Notes: a model not told the origin generated them from the sequence alone. A stretch of DNA of 64,000 nucleotides from an uncultured Chloroflexia bacterium (GCA_963828285.1 CAWHEB010000002.1:376297-440296); one strand, 5' to 3'; counted from the stretch's first letter, positions 20,611 through 27,315 are shown. Made by a program: numbers and translations.

Positions 20611-20705
20611 AATGAGTGTAGGGGCGGACCTGCGTGTCCGCCCATCTTTCCTCCTCGTCATTGCGAGACCGAGTGCACCTGCTTCGGTCGAGGAGCAATC
20701 CCCAA
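20611..20705. repeat. GC-rich hairpin repeat element, copy A
   Basis: GTAGGGGCGGACctgcgtGTCCGCCC followed by GTCATTGCGAG-[hairpin]-GCAATCCCCAAC. Confidence 0.7.
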
Positions 20706-20756
20706 CAGCTCTTCTACCCAGGCACGTTGCATTCCTACCGGTTTTGAAGGAATGGG

Positions 20757-20870
20757 TTGGTAGGGATGGAATGTCCAGACCTCCATCCCTACCAGTTAAA
20801 GCCCCTCCCGCATAAACATCTTTGGTATAGATCGAAATTACTTGCGGGAGGGGTTGGGGTGGGCAATGTA
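20757..20870. repeat. Pair of long perfect hairpins (12-bp and 11-bp stems)
   Basis: GGTAGGGATGGA-atgtccagacc-TCCATCCCTACC and CCCCTCCCGCA-(30 nt)-TGCGGGAGGGG. Confidence 0.6.
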
Positions 20871-21085
20871 GCTGATAGGTTAGGTTTCCTCCGCGAAACC
20901 CCATAGAAATACTATCCTTGCCACTATGCCTTCGAGAATCAGGATAATTTTTTCCCTATAAGCATATAATCATCTAAAGAGATCGTTTCTAACTTACGTT
21001 GGTTTTCCAATCAGAACTCGATTTCCCGCACTTTCCAGAGGGGATAAATGCAAACCATTCGCCTCACAAACCTAATGGAGCAGCC

Positions 21086-21655
21086 ATGGATGTGAAAATA
21101 CTCATCATCATCGGATTCTCATACCTCTACGGATTCTTTGAACTGTTTATGAATCTACGCCAACGGGGAAAAAGCAAAGTAAAAACTTCCAATGACAAAG
21201 GGAGTTTATGGGTTTTGTATCTACTCATCACCATTGGTTTTACCCTGTCATTCGTGATTGGAGCGACAAAAATTGGCAGGGTGCAACCCTGGAACACTTT
21301 CTTTGCCGTTGGAGCCGTCCTGGTGGTGATCGGATTGTTCGTCAGGATCCAGTCCATGCTCACCCTCAAACGATACTTCACCTATTCTGTGTCTCAGGTT
21401 GAGGATCACAAACTCATTGAAACGGGATTATATAAGACCATCCGGCATCCCGGGTATCTGGGTCAATTGTTGATCTTCGTCGGGCTCTCGATCTCATTAT
21501 CGAATTGGTTGTCCGTTCTGCTCATGATGATCCCGGTTGGTTTTGGATACTTGTATCGAATGAACGTGGAAGAAAAGTTTATGCTCGAACAAATGGGAGA
21601 AAAATACCTGAATTATCAAAAACGGACAAAACGAATCATCCCCATGGTTTATTGA
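21086..21655 (+). CDS. Isoprenylcysteine carboxyl methyltransferase (ICMT)/phospholipid methyltransferase family protein
   Basis: C-terminal RHPGYLGQLL..EE..L...G..Y..Y...T.R.IP signature. Polytopic. Confidence 0.8.
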   Translation: MDVKILIIIGFSYLYGFFELFMNLRQRGKSKVKTSNDKGSLWVLYLLITIGFTLSFVIGATKIGRVQPWNTFFAVGAVLVVIGLFVRIQSMLTLKRYFTYSVSQVEDHKLIETGLYKTIRHPGYLGQLLIFVGLSISLSNWLSVLLMMIPVGFGYLYRMNVEEKFMLEQMGEKYLNYQKRTKRIIPMVY

Positions 21656-22076
21656 ACTTTGCCTGTTGTAGGGGATCTTTCAGTTGGTAGTTCATACACT
21701 ATTCCATATTCTGTCAGAACCCAATCCGAACAGCTTATGATAAATCTTGAGCTATTGGGATTGAATTCCAAATTACCTTGCGACTGGAACCGAATCTTAA
21801 ATCACTGGGTTATATAAAGAGATTATATATACTGAATTAATTGAATCAAGAAAATCATCCGCATCGGTGGGATTTCAGGATACTTGGTTGTATGATTAAG
21901 TAAGCTCGCTCTTTGCCAATTGTCATAATGAACCTTTAATAATATGTAAAAATCACACAGCTAATATGGAACATCATCAAAATACGCACTTTACAAAATA
22001 CTTTCCATCCTCCCTTCGGTCGTTCTGGGAGGTTCGTTCATGATGTCCTTTTATTACATAATTAAGCTGGGTAAAT

Positions 22077-22755
22077 ATGCCTGGTAAAGTGCGCGAGATC
22101 TGGGAAGAATTCCGCAATGTTGTCGTAGGACGGAATTCCTTCCTCGATGCCATCCTCCCACCCATCGTTTTTCTGTTGCTGAACGGGTTTTTCGGCTTTC
22201 AAGTAGCTTTATGGGGAGCACTTGTCCTGGCAGTTCTGATCGCAGGTTTACGTCTATGGAATAAAAAATCTGTCGTGTATGCGCTCGCTGGAGTTGTGAG
22301 TGTCGGGCTGGCGGTTGGGATTGCTTTATTACCTGGGCAGGTCTGAAGGATTTTTTGCCACCAATCTCATCAGTGGGACCATGACCCTATTGCTCACAAT
22401 TCTTAGCCTTGTCATACGCCGTCCAATGGTAGCGTGGACGAGTTTCATCGCCCGCCGCTGGCCCATCAATTGGTATTGGCATCCGCAGGTTCGCCCTGCC
22501 TATGGTGAAGTCACTTTTGCCTGGGCGATATTCTTTGCTGCTCGATTGTTTTTACAATTTTCATTGTTTCAGCAGGCAAACACATCTATGCTGGCAGTGA
22601 CCAATCTCCTCACAGGCTGGCCGGCGATCATTTTGCTTTTGATCTTCAGTTATTTATATGGAACCTGGCGCCTCGCAAAACTGCACGGTCCAAGTGTCGA
22701 AGAGTTCAGAAATAACACCCCCCCGCCGTGGAAGAGTCAAACTCGCGGATTTTAA
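22077..22755 (+). CDS. Polytopic membrane protein, possibly one gene split by a +1 frameshift near 22300-22345
   Basis: Two overlapping hydrophobic ORFs (22077..22346 frame 0, 22300..22755 frame 1). Both halves are membrane-like. Could also be two genes. Confidence 0.35.
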
Positions 22756-22783
22756 TGATGGTTATTCATAAGGAGAATAAGTT

Positions 22784-25670: not shown

Positions 25671-25744
25671 ATAGATAACCTTCTATACGTATTATATAGA
25701 CGATCATCTATATGTCAAGGGTTTAATCCCCGGCCGGTCATTGC

Positions 25745-25880
25745 GATAATACCTTGTAGGGGCGGACCTGCGTGTCCGCCCGATCTGTCCCCGTTTTGTC
25801 ATTGCGAGCGAAACGCGGCAATCCCCACCATTATCTGTCATTGCGAGGAGCGTTCTTCGCGACGCGGCAATCCCCAACCT
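25745..25880. repeat. GC-rich hairpin repeat element, copy C (hairpin-1 plus two GTCATTGCGAG..GCAATCCCC modules)
   Basis: TTGTAGGGGCGGACCTGCGTGTCCGCCC..TTGTCATTGCGAGcgaaacgcgGCAATCCCCACC..CTGTCATTGCGAGgagcgttcttcgcgacgcgGCAATCCCCAAC. Confidence 0.7.
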
Positions 25881-26218
25881 GCTCCGTTCTAACAAAACGG
25901 GAATTCACCGCTTTCGAAGAAACTGGGTTGTCAAGGGTGGGTCAGCAGAATTCAGATCATAAACTGAGTCTAGTTGAATCTTCCATGTTTCATCCCCATA
26001 TAGGCGGACTTTTGTGTCATCCCACATTATGCGTCCATGGTCGGGTTAGTAAAAGTTAGGTTTTGCGTCGAACGCTCAATCATCCTACGCCTGTCGAAAT
26101 AGAGTGAGCGATAATCAAAGCATGGATATGGAATCATTAGATATTGTTAATGGAACTTTGTAAACGGGAGATTCGTCAAAAATTCAGTTCAATCAACAAA
26201 ACGAAAATGGAGTTCCAC

Positions 26219-27004
26219 ATGAACCAATTCATGGTTATAATCCTGACCGCTGCCCTGCTTACTGCATGCGGCTCAACCGAATTTGAAGCACCTCCATCAT
26301 CATCACCTGATCAACCTGTGGATAGCGGCTCAGGGGTTACACCGCTGCCTGCAACCTCTTACCAGCCACAGGATACAGACACTTCGCTAATGCGAGATTC
26401 GGTAGTAATTGAATCCAAAGATATTCTCACACTCGAGTCGTTTCCTCTGCAATATACGCTGGCACTGAAGGGGACGTTACCCACGATCTGCCATCAATTA
26501 CGGGTGAAAATCAATGAACCGAACTCAAAAAATGAGATTCATGTGGAGGTCTACAGCGTGACAGACCCGAATGCAGTCTGTGCAATGGTCCTCGCGCCGT
26601 TTGAAGCAAATATCGGTCTGAATAATTTTCCAATTGGAACCTATAATATTTTGGTAAATGGCGAAGCAGCCGGGCAAATTAGCATTGCCAGCGCAGACGG
26701 GTTATCCCGCTCCATGAAGGGATATGAGTTGTATAGCTGGCAATCCGACGATGTCTGGTATTTTTCCCTGCTCACAGGAACCAATCGAATGAAGACGATC
26801 GATGAAATAAAAGATGCAGCCATCCGTCTGGATGATCTCGAAAACCTCAAAGCTGAACTAGACAAACTCGCCGTGGGTGAATTTGTGACCTGGTCAATGA
26901 TTCAGGGAGACCTAAGCCTGGCCCTGCCGCCTGAAGAAATCGTCAATGATATCCGTGATTACTGCGAACATTTGGGCTTGCAATTAAACATCGTGTTGCC
27001 ATAG
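26219..27004 (+). CDS. Hypothetical lipoprotein
   Basis: Signal/lipobox MNQFMVIILTAALLTACGS. No family recognised. ORF track starts at 26144. Confidence 0.5.
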   Translation: MNQFMVIILTAALLTACGSTEFEAPPSSSPDQPVDSGSGVTPLPATSYQPQDTDTSLMRDSVVIESKDILTLESFPLQYTLALKGTLPTICHQLRVKINEPNSKNEIHVEVYSVTDPNAVCAMVLAPFEANIGLNNFPIGTYNILVNGEAAGQISIASADGLSRSMKGYELYSWQSDDVWYFSLLTGTNRMKTIDEIKDAAIRLDDLENLKAELDKLAVGEFVTWSMIQGDLSLALPPEEIVNDIRDYCEHLGLQLNIVLP

Positions 27005-27006
27005 TA

Positions 27007-27041
27007 GTTTGGGATTGAGATCTTTGCACTCAATCCCAAAC
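27007..27041 (+). terminator. Stem-loop terminator-like hairpin (13-bp perfect stem)
   Basis: GTTTGGGATTGAG-atctttgcac-CTCAATCCCAAAC immediately after the stop codon. T-rich tail is weak. Confidence 0.5.
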
Positions 27042-27229
27042 TGCACTTACTTTATTAATCATAGGTTAGGTTGAGGCTTTTCGCGAAACCCAACTCAACC
27101 ATCATAACCTACAGACGCATTTCCCCGATACCATCCTCTTTACTCGCCTAACAATCCATTCCATAAACAACATCATTTAAGTGATCGTTGAGCCTAGCTT
27201 GTCCTCCTGGGGAGAATACTTCGCCTTCC

Positions 27230-27315
27230 ACGGATACAAGGGGCGGATCTAAGTGTCCGCCCGCCTTTGCTTTGTCATTGCGTGGTGGACATCGTCCACC
27301 ATGGCAATCTCCAAC
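27230..27315. repeat. GC-rich hairpin repeat element, copy D (diverged)
   Basis: AAGGGGCGGATctaagtGTCCGCCC..TTTGTCATTGCGtggtggacatcgtccaccatgGCAATCTCCAAC. Compensatory changes keep the stems. Confidence 0.6.

What the first reader, a model, noticed from the sequence alone, without database searches (positions are those of the whole stretch)
20611..27315. Novel GC-rich hairpin repeat family flanking the hgcAB locus
Four copies occur within 7 kb at 20611-20705, 24046-24078, 25745-25880 and 27230-27315, all intergenic. Each has a conserved first module (T)GTAGGGGCGGACctgcgtGTCCGCCC, a 7-8 bp GC stem. Three copies also carry one or two second modules GTCATTGCGAG-[variable hairpin]-GCAATCCCCAAC, with an ATTGC/GCAAT outer stem around a different inner hairpin in each copy. 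Copy D keeps both stems through compensatory substitutions, which suggests the structure is selected. Copies B and C bracket the arsR-hgcAB cassette. The family could be a REP/MITE-like element or a small structured RNA.
Basis: seen in the sequence. Interest (0 to 1): 0.6.

Follow-up and report, generated by a model that had tools for sequence, protein, structure and literature searches.

The report
Ordinary REP hairpin repeats near hgcAB
The four hairpin-repeat clusters are real. They are copies of two long-known, very widespread kinds of bacterial intergenic palindromic repeats (GTAG-tagged and CGTC-tagged REP elements), and nothing ties them specifically to the mercury-methylation genes.

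Summary
Module 1 (GTAG + GGGCGGAC/CTGCGT/GTCCGCCC) occurs exactly three times plus one degenerate copy. Module 2 ((C/T)GTC-ATTGCGAG…GCAAT-CCC) occurs four times plus two half copies. All lie on the + strand, in intergenic DNA, within 20.6-27.3 kb, and nowhere else in the 64 kb window.

The family is not novel. Module 1 has the anatomy of a GTAG-tagged REP. Module 2 has most of the anatomy of a CGTC/TGTC-tagged REP. Di Nocera et al. 2013 (PMC3733652) defined both superfamilies. Collection scans found both modules in hundreds of contigs. Module 2 occurs in Bradyrhizobium, sphingomonads, Chloroflexus, Anaerolineales, Dehalococcoidia, Acidobacteria, Oscillospiraceae, Opitutaceae, Treponema and others. 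In other genomes they mostly form tag-outside inverted dimers, as published. Both stems covary.

Two relatives with arsR-hgcAB (76% and 73% HgcA identity) lack these repeats, so the bracketing is local. I found no RAYT or other transposase in the window or in 3.3 Mb of repeat-bearing loci. There is no Rfam match.

Best reading: selfish or neutral REP-type DNA hairpins in a BIME/NIME-like same-strand mosaic, sitting in a decaying, rearranged region. They may act secondarily as mRNA 3′-end hairpins. Interest is low. The one open question is what propagates the pan-bacterial CGTC-type element.

The parts
20618..20643 (+). Cluster A, module 1: GTAG-tagged REP (GTAG + GGGCGGAC / CTGCGT / GTCCGCCC). 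It starts 30 nt after the stop of the F420H2-quinone-reductase-like gene (20112-20588).
20656..20706 (+). Cluster A, module 2: CGTC-tagged REP-like hairpin (CGTC-ATTGCGAG-[ACCGAG..TCGGT]-..GCAAT-CCCCAAC). It is joined to module 1 by the pyrimidine-rich linker ATCTTTCCTCCT.
21667..21681 (+). Hairpin-less relative of module 1: TGTAGGGG|ATCTTTC. This equals the flanks of cluster A joined with the 19 nt CGGACCTGCGTGTCCGCCC missing. It lies 12 nt after the ICMT/PEMT-family gene stop.
24048..24078 (+). Cluster B: module 1 alone. It is identical over 31 nt to the cluster C copy, including the GATCT tail. It sits between the ICMT 3' remnant and the hgcB stop codon (24088-24090).
   Evidence: (family D11)
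25736..25747 (+). Cluster C: isolated 5' half of a module 2 (GGTC-ATTGCGAT).
25756..25781 (+). Cluster C, module 1 (exact copy). The cluster begins 19 nt upstream of the -35 hexamer of the arsR-hgcAB promoter.
25797..25829 (+). Cluster C, module 2a: TGTC-ATTGC-GA-GCG-AAA-CGC-G-GCAAT-CCCCACC.
25836..25878 (+). Cluster C, module 2b: TGTC-ATTGCGAG-GAGCGTTCTTCGCGAC-GCG-GCAAT-CCCCAAC.
27237..27262 (+). Cluster D, degenerate module 1: the tag is CAAG, the stem is GGGCGGAT/GTCCGCCC with one G.T pair, and the loop is CTAAGT.
27273..27315 (+). Cluster D, module 2: TGTC-ATTGC-GTG-GTGGAC-ATC-GTCCAC-CATG-GCAAT-CTCCAAC.
27321..27340 (+). Cluster D: isolated 3' half of a module 2 (TC-ATCGCAAT-CCCCC). It lies about 75 nt upstream of the cation-efflux gene ATG.
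24088..25718 (-). Context, not part of the repeat: the arsR-hgcA-hgcB cassette with its promoter and operator palindrome (25664-25718). hgcA is split by a +1 frameshift into two ORFs (24364-25083 and 24873-25379).

Best explanation
The four clusters are REP-type (repetitive extragenic palindrome) elements of two known superfamilies, laid head-to-tail on one strand as a small mosaic of the BIME/NIME kind.

Module 1 is a GTAG-tagged REP: an unpaired GTAG 'guide' tetranucleotide abutting an 8-bp GC-rich stem. Module 2 is a CGTC/TGTC-tagged REP-like element. It has an unpaired tag, an outer stem ATTGC/GCAAT whose first two pairs are A-T and T-A, a conserved purine-rich internal loop (GA opposite GWR), a free-to-vary perfectly palindromic inner hairpin, and a short C-rich tail.

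Shown here:
- the sequence anatomy;
- structural covariation in both modules;
- a very wide taxonomic spread;
- the published dimer habit in other genomes;
- intergenic placement;
- no locally linked gene;
- no conservation around hgcAB in relatives.

Inferred from established knowledge of REPs:
- They spread as single-stranded DNA hairpins.
- The GTAG class is cut and rejoined by a RAYT (a Y1 HUH transposase of the IS200 type) that reads the hairpin foot and the GTAG guide.
- The CGTC class is spread by an agent still unknown.
- Copies persist where insertions are tolerated. Here that is a 7-kb stretch with three broken genes and one truncated gene duplicate.

Once in place they are probably co-transcribed. 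They may act as 3'-end hairpins, that is, weak terminators or stabilisers, for the + strand genes upstream of clusters A, B and D. Clusters A and D are followed by T-rich linkers. Their position around arsR-hgcAB is incidental.
For: Anatomy and copy counts.

Published definitions that the modules fit (PMC3733652). GTAG tags abut 5-13 bp stems. CGTC tags are often TGTC, the first two stem pairs are A-T and T-A, there is a 3-nt tail, tag-outside (HH) dimers predominate, and there is no dedicated transposase. The supplement lists CGTC-3 peptides such as VIAGLDPAIH. By back-translation these correspond to GTC ATT GCC GGG ... GCA ATC CA, the same CGTC-ATTGC...GCAAT-CC frame as module 2.

Spread:
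- Module 2 occurs in 96 viral-contig stretches.
- 83 of 120 sampled genome loci carry a complete copy, from at least ten phyla by record title.
- Module 1 occurs in more than 120 viral-contig stretches.
- The same-strand composite occurs in 78 metagenome stretches with many different flanks.

Dimers. The partner of module 2 is downstream and inverted in 80 of 203 cases. The partner of a GTAG hairpin is downstream and inverted in 48 of 231 cases.

Covariation:
- Module 1: 96% of cells paired, 6 of 8 pairs changed on both sides, 0 of 500 shuffles as good.
- Module 2 inner helix: 2.88 contiguous pairs on average against 0.59 in shuffles, with 88 distinct arms.
- Module 2 inner helices: 616 Watson-Crick pairs, 2 internal mismatches and no G.T pair. 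This points to a DNA-level palindrome.

Other points:
- No protein family recurs next to the repeats.
- Relatives L417 and L418 have arsR-hgcAB without these repeats.
- Clusters A and D score as terminator-like.
- Broken genes surround the repeats.
Against: - No RAYT or Y1 transposase was found in the window (Pfam scans). None was found in 417 repeat-bearing loci totalling 3.3 Mb, searched with an HMM built from the RAYT alignment of PMC3733652. Mobilisation by a RAYT is therefore borrowed from other systems, not shown here.
- The source genome could not be retrieved, so genome-wide dispersal in this organism is untested. In the window all copies fall within 7 kb and none in the other 57 kb, which is more clustered than a typical REP family.
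- All copies are same-strand (head-to-tail). That arrangement is rare in the published families and in my own sample.
- Module 2 has a bipartite stem with a nested hairpin. It is not the continuous 8-9 bp stem with a 4-5 nt loop of the four published CGTC families.
- Cluster C lies between divergent genes, the least common REP position.
Confidence: 0.8

Rival explanations
1. The repeats mark recombination joints of a mobile or exchangeable gene cassette. On this reading arsR-hgcAB, and perhaps the neighbouring lipoprotein gene, were brought in or shuffled by recombination at REP sequences, as with dRS3/NIME-bounded 'minimal mobile elements' in Neisseria or insertion into REP targets.
For: - Clusters B and C are identical over 31 nt and flank the 1.68-kb cassette as direct repeats (family D11). 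The cassette points opposite to its neighbours.
- A truncated, 85%-identical duplicate of the ICMT gene 3' end abuts cluster B (family D2).
- The lipoprotein gene between clusters C and D sits in unrelated contexts in its 78-80% relatives.
- The half-modules at 25736 and 27321 are 8/8 complementary to each other (ATTGCGAT/ATCGCAAT).
Against: - In the partly syntenic relative L417 (76% HgcA identity) the cassette is also inverted relative to its neighbours, but without these repeats. The inversion therefore predates or is independent of them.
- No integrase, transposase or IS110-type gene was found among the window ORFs scanned.
- Clusters A and D flank unrelated genes.
- Isolated half-modules also occur as tandem arrays elsewhere (L252), so the complementary halves need not be one split element.
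- The 10-mer ATCGCAATCC occurs by chance at about the observed rate in other loci.
Confidence: 0.1
2. They are plain transcription terminators or 3'-UTR stabiliser hairpins, conserved for that function alone and not mobile repeats.
For: - The module 1 copies in clusters A and D are followed by T-rich tracts and are picked up by the terminator scan.
- Clusters A, B and D lie downstream of + strand genes and in their sense.
Against: - The same 26-mer, with an invariant unpaired GTAG, recurs next to unrelated genes and in many unrelated organisms.
- Cluster C lies upstream of a promoter between divergent genes.
- The T tracts are poor (5 T in 8 nt, interrupted).
- Module 2 has no T tract at all.
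- In other genomes the elements form inverted dimers.
Confidence: 0.07
3. They are a family of small structured RNAs or cis-regulatory RNA motifs, with function carried by the conserved GA/GWR internal loop of module 2.
For: - Flanks and internal loop are conserved while the distal helix covaries.
- RNA folds of clusters B and D are better than shuffles (z = -2.5 and -3.5).
Against: - There is no Rfam match, even at E<=10.
- There is no consistent neighbouring gene.
- Both orientations occur, with inverted dimers.
- Inner helices are perfect Watson-Crick palindromes with no G.U pairs, unlike evolving RNA helices.
- The folds of clusters A and C are not better than shuffles.
Confidence: 0.03

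Closest known systems
GTAG-tagged REPs / REPINs mobilised by RAYT (TnpA_REP). Examples: E. coli REP/BIME, Pseudomonas GTAG-1 and Chloroflexi GTAG-23 (Di Nocera et al. 2013, PMC3733652; Quentin et al. 2018, PMC6006769).
   Same: - An unpaired 5' GTAG abuts a short GC-rich stem-loop (8 bp stem, 6 nt loop).
- Sub-variants have compensatory stem changes.
- The location is intergenic, mostly just after stop codons.
- In other genomes the partners are tag-outside inverted dimers.
- Back-translated GTAG-23 peptides such as DEAALRPY imply GTAGGGGCG..., the same 5' end as module 1. This is an inference.
   Different: - No RAYT gene was found nearby, and no REPtron was seen.
- In this window all copies are single, on the same strand, and coupled to a different REP type.
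- The exact family assignment (GTAG-1 to GTAG-24) could not be checked because the paper's figure is not held.
CGTC-tagged REPs. CGTC-3 occurs in Rhodopseudomonas and Bradyrhizobium. CGTC-1 equals Neisseria dRS3 and Rickettsia RPE-6 (PMC3733652).
   Same: - The tag is CGTC or TGTC.
- The stem opens with A-T and T-A.
- The outer ATTGC...GCAAT matches CGTC-3 (back-translation of VIAGLDPAIH).
- There is a short unpaired C-rich tail.
- Tag-outside dimers predominate in other genomes (80/203).
- No dedicated transposase is known or was found.
   Different: - The stem is bipartite: 5 bp, then a conserved GA/GWR internal loop, then an inner hairpin of arbitrary sequence and length. The published families have a continuous 8-9 bp stem with a 4-5 nt loop.
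- The tail here is CCC rather than CCA.
- The sampled distribution (Chloroflexota, Acidobacteriota, Bacillota, Verrucomicrobiota, Fibrobacterota and others) goes beyond the five phyla listed in 2013.
BIMEs (E. coli) and NIMEs (Neisseria): mosaic clusters of REP-type units.
   Same: Several REP units of different types are packed in one intergenic region with short conserved linkers. Half units and tandem copies are present.
   Different: - BIMEs alternate REP orientation and carry defined linker motifs (for example IHF sites).
- NIMEs are repeat units bounded by inverted dRS3.
- Here all units point the same way and the linkers are only pyrimidine-rich.
d(GCGAAGC) extraordinarily stable DNA mini-hairpin (Hirao and co-workers). 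Cited from my own knowledge and not checked in the library.
   Same: The commonest module 2 cores in other genomes are GAG-C-GAA-G-CGAA and GC-GAA-GC. These contain that heptamer, which suggests folding as single-stranded DNA.
   Different: None of the four copies in this window has the GCGAAGC core. They carry other inner hairpins.
Integron attC sites.
   Same: The base of a hairpin is conserved while the palindromic centre varies, and the site is recognised as folded single-stranded DNA. The sites sit between gene cassettes.
   Different: There are no RYYYAAC/GTTRRRY cores and no integrase. The elements are far shorter, and most copies elsewhere are not between cassettes.

Membership tests
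GTAG-tagged REP superfamily | Unpaired GTAG (GT[AG]G) tetranucleotide directly abutting a stem-loop | tested here: met
   GTAG + GGGCGGAC/CTGCGT/GTCCGCCC in clusters A, B and C. Cluster D has the degenerate tag CAAG.
GTAG-tagged REP superfamily | Stem of 5-13 bp, loop of 2-20 nt, and sub-families with complementary stem changes | tested here: met
   The stem is 8 bp and the loop 6 nt. Variants GGGCGCAC/GTGCGCCC, GGGCAGAC/GTCTGCCC, GGGCCGAC/GTCGGCCC, GGACGGAC/GTCCGTCC and GTTCGGAC/GTCCGAGC were found. 6 of 8 pairs are changed on both sides.
GTAG-tagged REP superfamily | Many copies dispersed through the host genome | not testable with these tools
   The window has only 4 copies, all within 7 kb. 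The 1.63-Mb source contig could not be fetched. The motif is abundant in other contigs (more than 120 stretches).
GTAG-tagged REP superfamily | Association with a RAYT (Y1 HUH) gene flanked by the same REPs (a REPtron) | tested here: inconclusive
   No Y1_Tnp hit among the window ORFs scanned. No RAYT-profile hit in 417 loci. One truncated IS200-type remnant lies near such hairpins in L282. A genome usually has one RAYT, so absence from these samples proves little.
GTAG-tagged REP superfamily | Intergenic, mostly downstream of ORFs; inverted (HH/TT) dimers common | tested here: met
   All four copies are intergenic. Clusters A, B and D lie after gene ends and cluster C lies between divergent genes. 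There are no dimers in the window. In other loci the partner is downstream and inverted in 48 of 231 cases.
CGTC-tagged REP superfamily | Unpaired CGTC tag (TGTC or CCTC allowed) | tested here: met
   CGTC in cluster A; TGTC in C2a, C2b and D. Across 614 instances: TGTC 371, CGTC 196.
CGTC-tagged REP superfamily | Stem whose first two pairs are A-T and T-A | tested here: met
   ATTGC/GCAAT in all copies.
CGTC-tagged REP superfamily | Continuous stem of 8-9 bp with a loop of 4-5 nt | tested here: not met
   There is a 5-bp outer stem, an internal loop (GA / GWR) and then a nested hairpin of variable length. Interiors range from 12 to more than 40 nt. The paper notes variable loops in some Bradyrhizobium, Kosmotoga and Marinitoga families, so this is a variant rather than an exclusion.
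CGTC-tagged REP superfamily | Short unpaired 3' tail, consensus CCA | tested here: inconclusive
   The tail is CCC or CTC in the window. Elsewhere, reading the three bases that follow GCAAT (the triplets start one base later and are preceded by a fixed C), the commonest tails are CCC, CCG, CTC and CCA.
CGTC-tagged REP superfamily | Tag-outside (HH) dimers predominate; no dedicated transposase | tested here: met
   80 of 203 module 2 copies in genome loci have a downstream inverted partner. No recurrent neighbouring protein family was found. The window copies themselves are head-to-tail.
MITE | Terminal inverted repeats and target-site duplications bounding a unit of 100-600 bp | tested here: not met
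   Homology between copies starts at the tag and ends at the tail. The flanks are unrelated and there are no TIRs or TSDs.
Any Rfam RNA family | Match to a curated covariance model | tested here: not met
   There is no hit on the repeats at gathering score or at E<=10.
Intrinsic terminator | GC-rich hairpin directly followed by a U tract | tested here: inconclusive
   Module 1 of clusters A and D passes a loose scan (5 T in 8 nt). Clusters B and C and all module 2 copies do not.

The most novel reading that the evidence does not exclude
The CGTC-type 'ATTGCGAG' element keeps the same 11-nt 5' flank, GA/GWR internal loop and GCAATCC 3' flank from Bradyrhizobium to Chloroflexota and gut Bacillota. 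Its inner hairpin, by contrast, is replaced wholesale by new, perfectly palindromic sequences. This pattern could mean that a still-unidentified, pan-bacterial trans-acting enzyme reads only the hairpin foot and regenerates or propagates the element. Di Nocera et al. 2013 left open which agent, if any, mobilises CGTC REPs. The same-strand GTAG+CGTC composite and the hairpin-less site at 21667 might then be footprints of that activity. REP-bounded joints might also contribute to shuffling cassettes such as arsR-hgcAB.
Probability: 0.12. Interest if true: 0.6.

Novelty: new member of a known kind. Interest (0 to 1): 0.22.

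Why it matters
For hgcAB biology it matters little. The repeats are not a conserved feature of the locus and give no evidence of a dedicated regulatory RNA or a mobile mercury-methylation cassette.

For annotation, recognising them as REPs prevents spurious ORF calls. Examples are 20585-20815, 25772-26059 and 27148-27345, which read through the repeats and have no Pfam match where tested. It also prevents false 'novel ncRNA' claims.

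The wider point is modest. One CGTC-type family with constant flanks and a free inner palindrome is present in far more phyla than the 2013 survey listed, and its propagating agent is still unknown. A phylogenetic-profiling study could now address that.

Tried and rejected
- **Literature by sequence string.** GTCATTGCGAG returned only primers. Longer module 2 strings returned nothing. GTAGGGGC + REP + palindrome returned nothing relevant. The relevant paper came from a RAYT/REPIN/phyla search.
- **Rfam.** No hit at gathering score or at E<=10.
- **Fetching the source genome.** The ArsR ORF was not on record. P0001 returned only a 1.3-kb Logan contig without DNA. P0121 was not on record. The cluster look-up gave no name. 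No genome-wide count was therefore possible.
- **Transposase search.**
  - phmmer with IS200 TnpA and E. coli RayT recalled from memory found only a truncated IS200 remnant in L282. The RayT sequence was later confirmed against the paper's supplement.
  - An HMM plus phmmer with 22 RAYT/TIRYT sequences from the supplement found no hit among 22,090 ORFs.
  - Pfam on about 58 window ORFs and ORF fragments found no transposase or integrase.
- **Unbiased clustering of ORFs around the repeats.** Viral loci gave only phage synteny blocks. Genome loci gave no recurrent family beyond common paralogues.
- **Is module 1 + module 2 a general composite?** It is rare among independently selected copies (1/193 and 12/231), although it recurs at many distinct metagenome sites. 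Most genome-contig hits to GTCCGCCC..GTCATTGCGAG were module 2 next to a chance GTCCGCCC.
- **G.T versus A.C asymmetry as a test for RNA-level selection.** This was uninformative because the inner helices have almost no mismatches.
- **'Split REP' idea** (halves at 25736 and 27321). No compact GTCATTGCGAT..ATCGCAATCC element exists in any fetched locus. I keep it only as a remark.
- **A third motif** (GTTAGGTT..CGCGAAACCC) has only two or three loose copies.

Full report
**1. Observation**

The sequence is as described.

Module 1:
- The 23-mer GGGGCGGACCTGCGTGTCCGCCC matches exactly at 20621, 24051 and 25759.
- It matches with three mismatches at 27240.
- All matches are on the + strand, and none is expected by chance.

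Module 2:
- The 5' flank GTCATTGCGAG is at 20657, 25798 and 25837.
- One-mismatch versions are at 25737 and 27274.
- The 3' flank GCAATC(C/T)CCA(A/C)C follows at 20695, 25818, 25867 and 27304.

A scan of the whole window for GTAG followed by a perfect GC-rich hairpin returns only these three module 1 copies. The family is therefore confined to 20.6-27.3 kb of the 64 kb.

Homology between copies begins at the tag and ends at the tail of module 2. The outer flanks are unrelated.

All copies are intergenic:
- Cluster A starts 30 nt after the stop of an F420H2-quinone-reductase-like gene.
- Cluster B ends 14 nt from the hgcB stop codon.
- Cluster C starts 19 nt upstream of the -35 hexamer of a 12/12 consensus promoter for arsR-hgcAB.
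- Cluster D lies between a lipoprotein gene (PF27154) and a cation-efflux gene.

Module 1 of D has one one-sided C->T change (a G.T pair) and has lost the GTAG tag. Module 2 of D carries a different perfect inner palindrome.

I add three related sites:
- a 5' half-module at 25736-25747;
- a 3' half-module at 27321-27340;
- TGTAGGGGATCTTTC at 21667-21681, which equals the flanks of cluster A with the 19-nt hairpin core missing.

**2. What the modules are**

Module 1 is GTAG directly followed by an 8-bp stem (GGGCGGAC/GTCCGCCC) and a 6-nt loop.

Module 2 has these parts:
- a tag, CGTC in cluster A and TGTC elsewhere;
- an outer stem ATTGC/GCAAT;
- a conserved asymmetric internal loop, 5' GA opposite 3' G-W-R;
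- an inner hairpin that differs in every copy;
- a C-rich tail.

No Rfam family matches, at gathering score or at E<=10.

A literature search found Di Nocera, De Gregorio and Rocco 2013 (PMC3733652). That paper sorts most bacterial REPs into two superfamilies by an unpaired terminal tag, GTAG or CGTC.

The GTAG class has:
- stems of 5-13 bp;
- frequent clusters;
- association with RAYT transposases.

The CGTC class has:
- a tag often changed to TGTC;
- stems whose first two pairs are A-T and T-A;
- a 3-nt tail;
- predominantly tag-outside (HH) dimers;
- no dedicated transposase.

CGTC-1 in Neisseria is the dRS3 repeat.

The paper's supplement lists peptides encoded by intragenic copies. CGTC-3 gives VIAGLDPAIH. 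By back-translation this is GTC ATT GCC GGG CTT GAC CCG GCA ATC CA, the same CGTC-ATTGC...GCAAT-CC frame as module 2. Chloroflexi GTAG-23 gives DEAALRPY, which implies GTAGGGGCG..., the same 5' end as module 1.

Module 1 therefore fits the GTAG superfamily on every feature I could test. Module 2 fits the CGTC superfamily on the tag, the A-T/T-A opening and the dimer habit, and its tail is a short C-rich variant rather than the CCA consensus. It departs from the four published families in its bipartite stem with a nested, freely varying hairpin.

**3. Distribution elsewhere**

- The module 2 pattern hit 96 stretches of viral contigs.

In that sample, 83 of 120 loci carry a complete module 2. 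Record titles name Bradyrhizobium, sphingomonads, Methylobacterium, Chloroflexus islandicus, Anaerolineales, Dehalococcoidia, Vicinamibacteria, Desulfomonilaceae, Oscillospiraceae, Ruminococcus, Flintibacter, Rhodothermales, Opitutaceae, Fibrobacter, Treponema, Rifleibacteriota and Hydrogenedentota. This is wider than the five phyla listed for CGTC repeats in 2013.

The typical arrangement in these genomes is the published one:
- The nearest partner of a module 2 is downstream and inverted in 80 of 203 cases.
- The nearest partner of a GTAG hairpin is downstream and inverted in 48 of 231 cases.

The same-strand module 1 -> module 2 composite seen in the window is rare among independently selected copies. 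It nevertheless recurs at 78 metagenome stretches with many different flanks and linkers, mostly gut Bacillota with loop GACTCT.

**4. Structure is selected, probably at the DNA level**

Module 1. Hits anchored only on the tag and loop include eight or more different fully paired stems. On 25 family members picked from those hits:
- 96% of cells pair;
- 6 of 8 pairs show changes on both sides;
- no shuffle or slid register comes close.

I removed 13 hits that looked like chance matches, about the number expected. The paired percentage is therefore somewhat flattered.

Module 2. I collected 384 distinct interiors using only the flanks.
- The inner helix has 2.88 contiguous pairs from its base, against 0.59 in shuffles.
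- There are 88 different 5' arms of at least 4 bp.
- The 97 longest helices contain 616 Watson-Crick pairs, two internal mismatches and no G.T pair.

Perfect palindromes without wobble intermediates look like a DNA-level process that makes or corrects both arms together. They do not look like slow compensatory evolution of an RNA helix.

Many cores elsewhere contain GCGAAGC. From my own knowledge, this is an unusually stable DNA mini-hairpin.

**5. No linked gene, and no link to hgcAB**

- Pfam scans of about 58 window ORFs and ORF fragments found no transposase or integrase.
- A profile built from the RAYT/TIRYT alignment in the paper's supplement found nothing among 22,090 ORFs from 417 repeat-bearing loci.
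- Only a truncated IS200 remnant sits near such hairpins, in one Oscillospiraceae locus.
- Clustering of neighbouring ORFs showed no recurrent family in genome loci.

Two relatives carrying arsR-hgcA-hgcB were fetched.
- L417 has 76% HgcA identity and partly the same neighbours: MalT-like regulator, DUF4386, Rce1-like and ADH genes.
- L418 has 73% HgcA identity.
- Both keep the arsR promoter and operator palindrome. Neither has module 1 (GGGCGGAC type) or module 2 next to the cassette.
- L417 has one different GTAG hairpin 1 kb away.

The bracketing of hgcAB by clusters B and C is therefore a local feature of this genome.

**6. Why here?**

The 22-28 kb stretch looks scarred.
- DUF3159 is split at profile position ~70.
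- hgcA is split by one extra base in ...ACC TTT C GGC ACT GGC.... The public gene call on the same 1.63-Mb contig is also truncated, at 179 aa.
- The cation-efflux gene runs through three frames.
- A truncated, 85%-identical copy of the ICMT gene 3' end lies next to cluster B.

Whether these are real pseudogenes or long-read indel errors cannot be told from the sequence. If real, the region is under relaxed constraint, where small insertions accumulate. That would explain the clustering.

**7. Mechanism, with what is shown and what is inferred**

Shown:
- the anatomy;
- the covariation;
- the spread;
- the dimer habit;
- the intergenic placement;
- the absence of a local partner gene;
- the non-conservation around hgcAB.

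Inferred from published work on REPs (PMC3733652, PMC6006769):
- GTAG REPs are bound as single-stranded hairpins by a RAYT, which reads the GTAG guide and cuts and rejoins the DNA.
- The agent for CGTC REPs is unknown.
- REPs downstream of genes are transcribed and can stabilise or end transcripts.

Clusters A and D pass a loose terminator scan. All four clusters are in the sense of the predominantly + strand genes, though four of four on one strand is not significant.

**8. Rivals**

- A recombination-joint role for the repeats around hgcAB has some support: the 31-nt identical direct repeats, the adjacent gene remnant and the variable context of the lipoprotein gene. L417 and the absence of any recombinase weaken it.
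- A pure terminator role, or a small-RNA role, is contradicted by the cross-genome behaviour of the elements.

**9. Verdict**

The finding is real and correctly located. The interpretation as a novel family tied to hgcAB is not supported.

It is a new member of a known kind of element: a local, same-strand mosaic of GTAG- and CGTC-type REPs in a probable Anaerolineae genome. The taxon is inferred from the names of HgcA relatives.

The only aspect with wider interest is the unexplained pan-bacterial conservation of the CGTC-type flanks around a freely replaced perfect palindrome.

Noticed in passing
window 24364-25379 (-): hgcA is split into two overlapping ORFs (168 aa and 239 aa) by one extra base just after the NVWCAAGK motif (…ACC TTT C GGC ACT GGC…). 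The public gene call on the same 1.63-Mb contig is also truncated (P0121, 179 aa). This is either a pseudogene or an assembly indel.
   Followed up: partly
window 22077-22755 (+) and 27413-28074 (+): Two more broken genes lie in the same 7 kb. DUF3159 is split at profile position ~70. A cation-efflux (CDF) gene runs through three reading frames. No comparable breaks were obvious elsewhere in the window.
   Followed up: partly
window 21400-21670 vs 23704-23974: The 3' end of the ICMT/PEMT-family gene is duplicated 2.3 kb downstream at 85% identity, as a truncated remnant abutting REP cluster B. The similarity continues weakly for about 30 nt past both copies.
   Followed up: partly
window 21667-21681 (+): TGTAGGGGATCTTTC is an exact join of the left and right flanks of cluster A with the 19-nt hairpin core absent. 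It lies 12 nt after a stop codon. It could be an excision or deletion footprint, or a pre-insertion-like site.
   Followed up: partly
window 25736-25747 and 27321-27340 (+): The isolated half-modules GTC-ATTGCGAT and ATCGCAAT-CCCCC deviate from the family consensus in mutually complementary ways (8/8 pairing). They enclose 1.57 kb that holds the lipoprotein gene. No compact element of this variant exists in any fetched locus, so a 'REP split by an insertion' remains speculation.
   Followed up: partly
window 25664-25718; L417 ~9640-9690; L418 ~9640-9693: A perfect-consensus sigma-70 promoter (TTGACA-16-TATAAT, - strand) overlaps a 24-nt imperfect palindrome just upstream of arsR. Closely similar sequence (…ttgacatatagacgatcatctatata…) is kept in two relatives with 73-76% HgcA identity. 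It is probably the ArsR operator of the hgcAB operon.
   Followed up: partly
window 20758-20794, 20802-20853, 27006-27042; 20875-20886 and 27061-27072: Other intergenic hairpins sit beside the REP clusters, with perfect arms of 13, 11 and 14 bp. A short motif, ATAGGTTAGGTT followed by …CGCGAAACCC, occurs once after cluster A and once before cluster D.
   Followed up: partly
L252 2275-2463, 4759-5788, 7747-8000 (Dehalococcoidia MAG OZ244879.1): There are tandem arrays built from module 2 pieces. The 5' half alone (…TGTCATTGCG…) repeats every 25-27 nt up to 7 times. Whole modules repeat every 66 nt. In all there are 18 complete modules in 8 kb.
   Followed up: no
all fetched loci (382 distinct module 2 interiors): The inner helices of module 2 are essentially perfect: 616 Watson-Crick pairs, 2 internal mismatches and no G.T pair. 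Yet 88 different arm sequences exist between constant flanks. How new perfect palindromes arise inside a constant frame is unexplained.
   Followed up: partly
window 1-5115 vs 11882-17888: A block of genes is duplicated about 12 kb apart at 71-91% DNA identity: MalT-like LuxR regulator, DUF4386 and zinc alcohol dehydrogenase.
   Followed up: no
window 54429-54520 (-): A c-di-GMP-I-GGC riboswitch (RF03167, 63.4 bits, above gathering score) lies upstream of a 238-aa ORF (53701-54417) that has no Pfam match.
   Followed up: no
window 62258-62346 and 63912-64000: An 89-nt stretch covering the RBS and start of a flagellin gene (62303-63556) is repeated 100% identically 1654 nt downstream at the window edge. 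This suggests tandem flagellin paralogues.
   Followed up: no
L098-L216 (many IMG/VR contigs from sample 3300045988): In one family of related phage contigs, a GTAG hairpin with loop GGCTCT or GACTCT (GTAGGGGCGGACGGCTCTGTCCGCCC) sits at a conserved position immediately upstream of an RBS and ATG.
   Followed up: no
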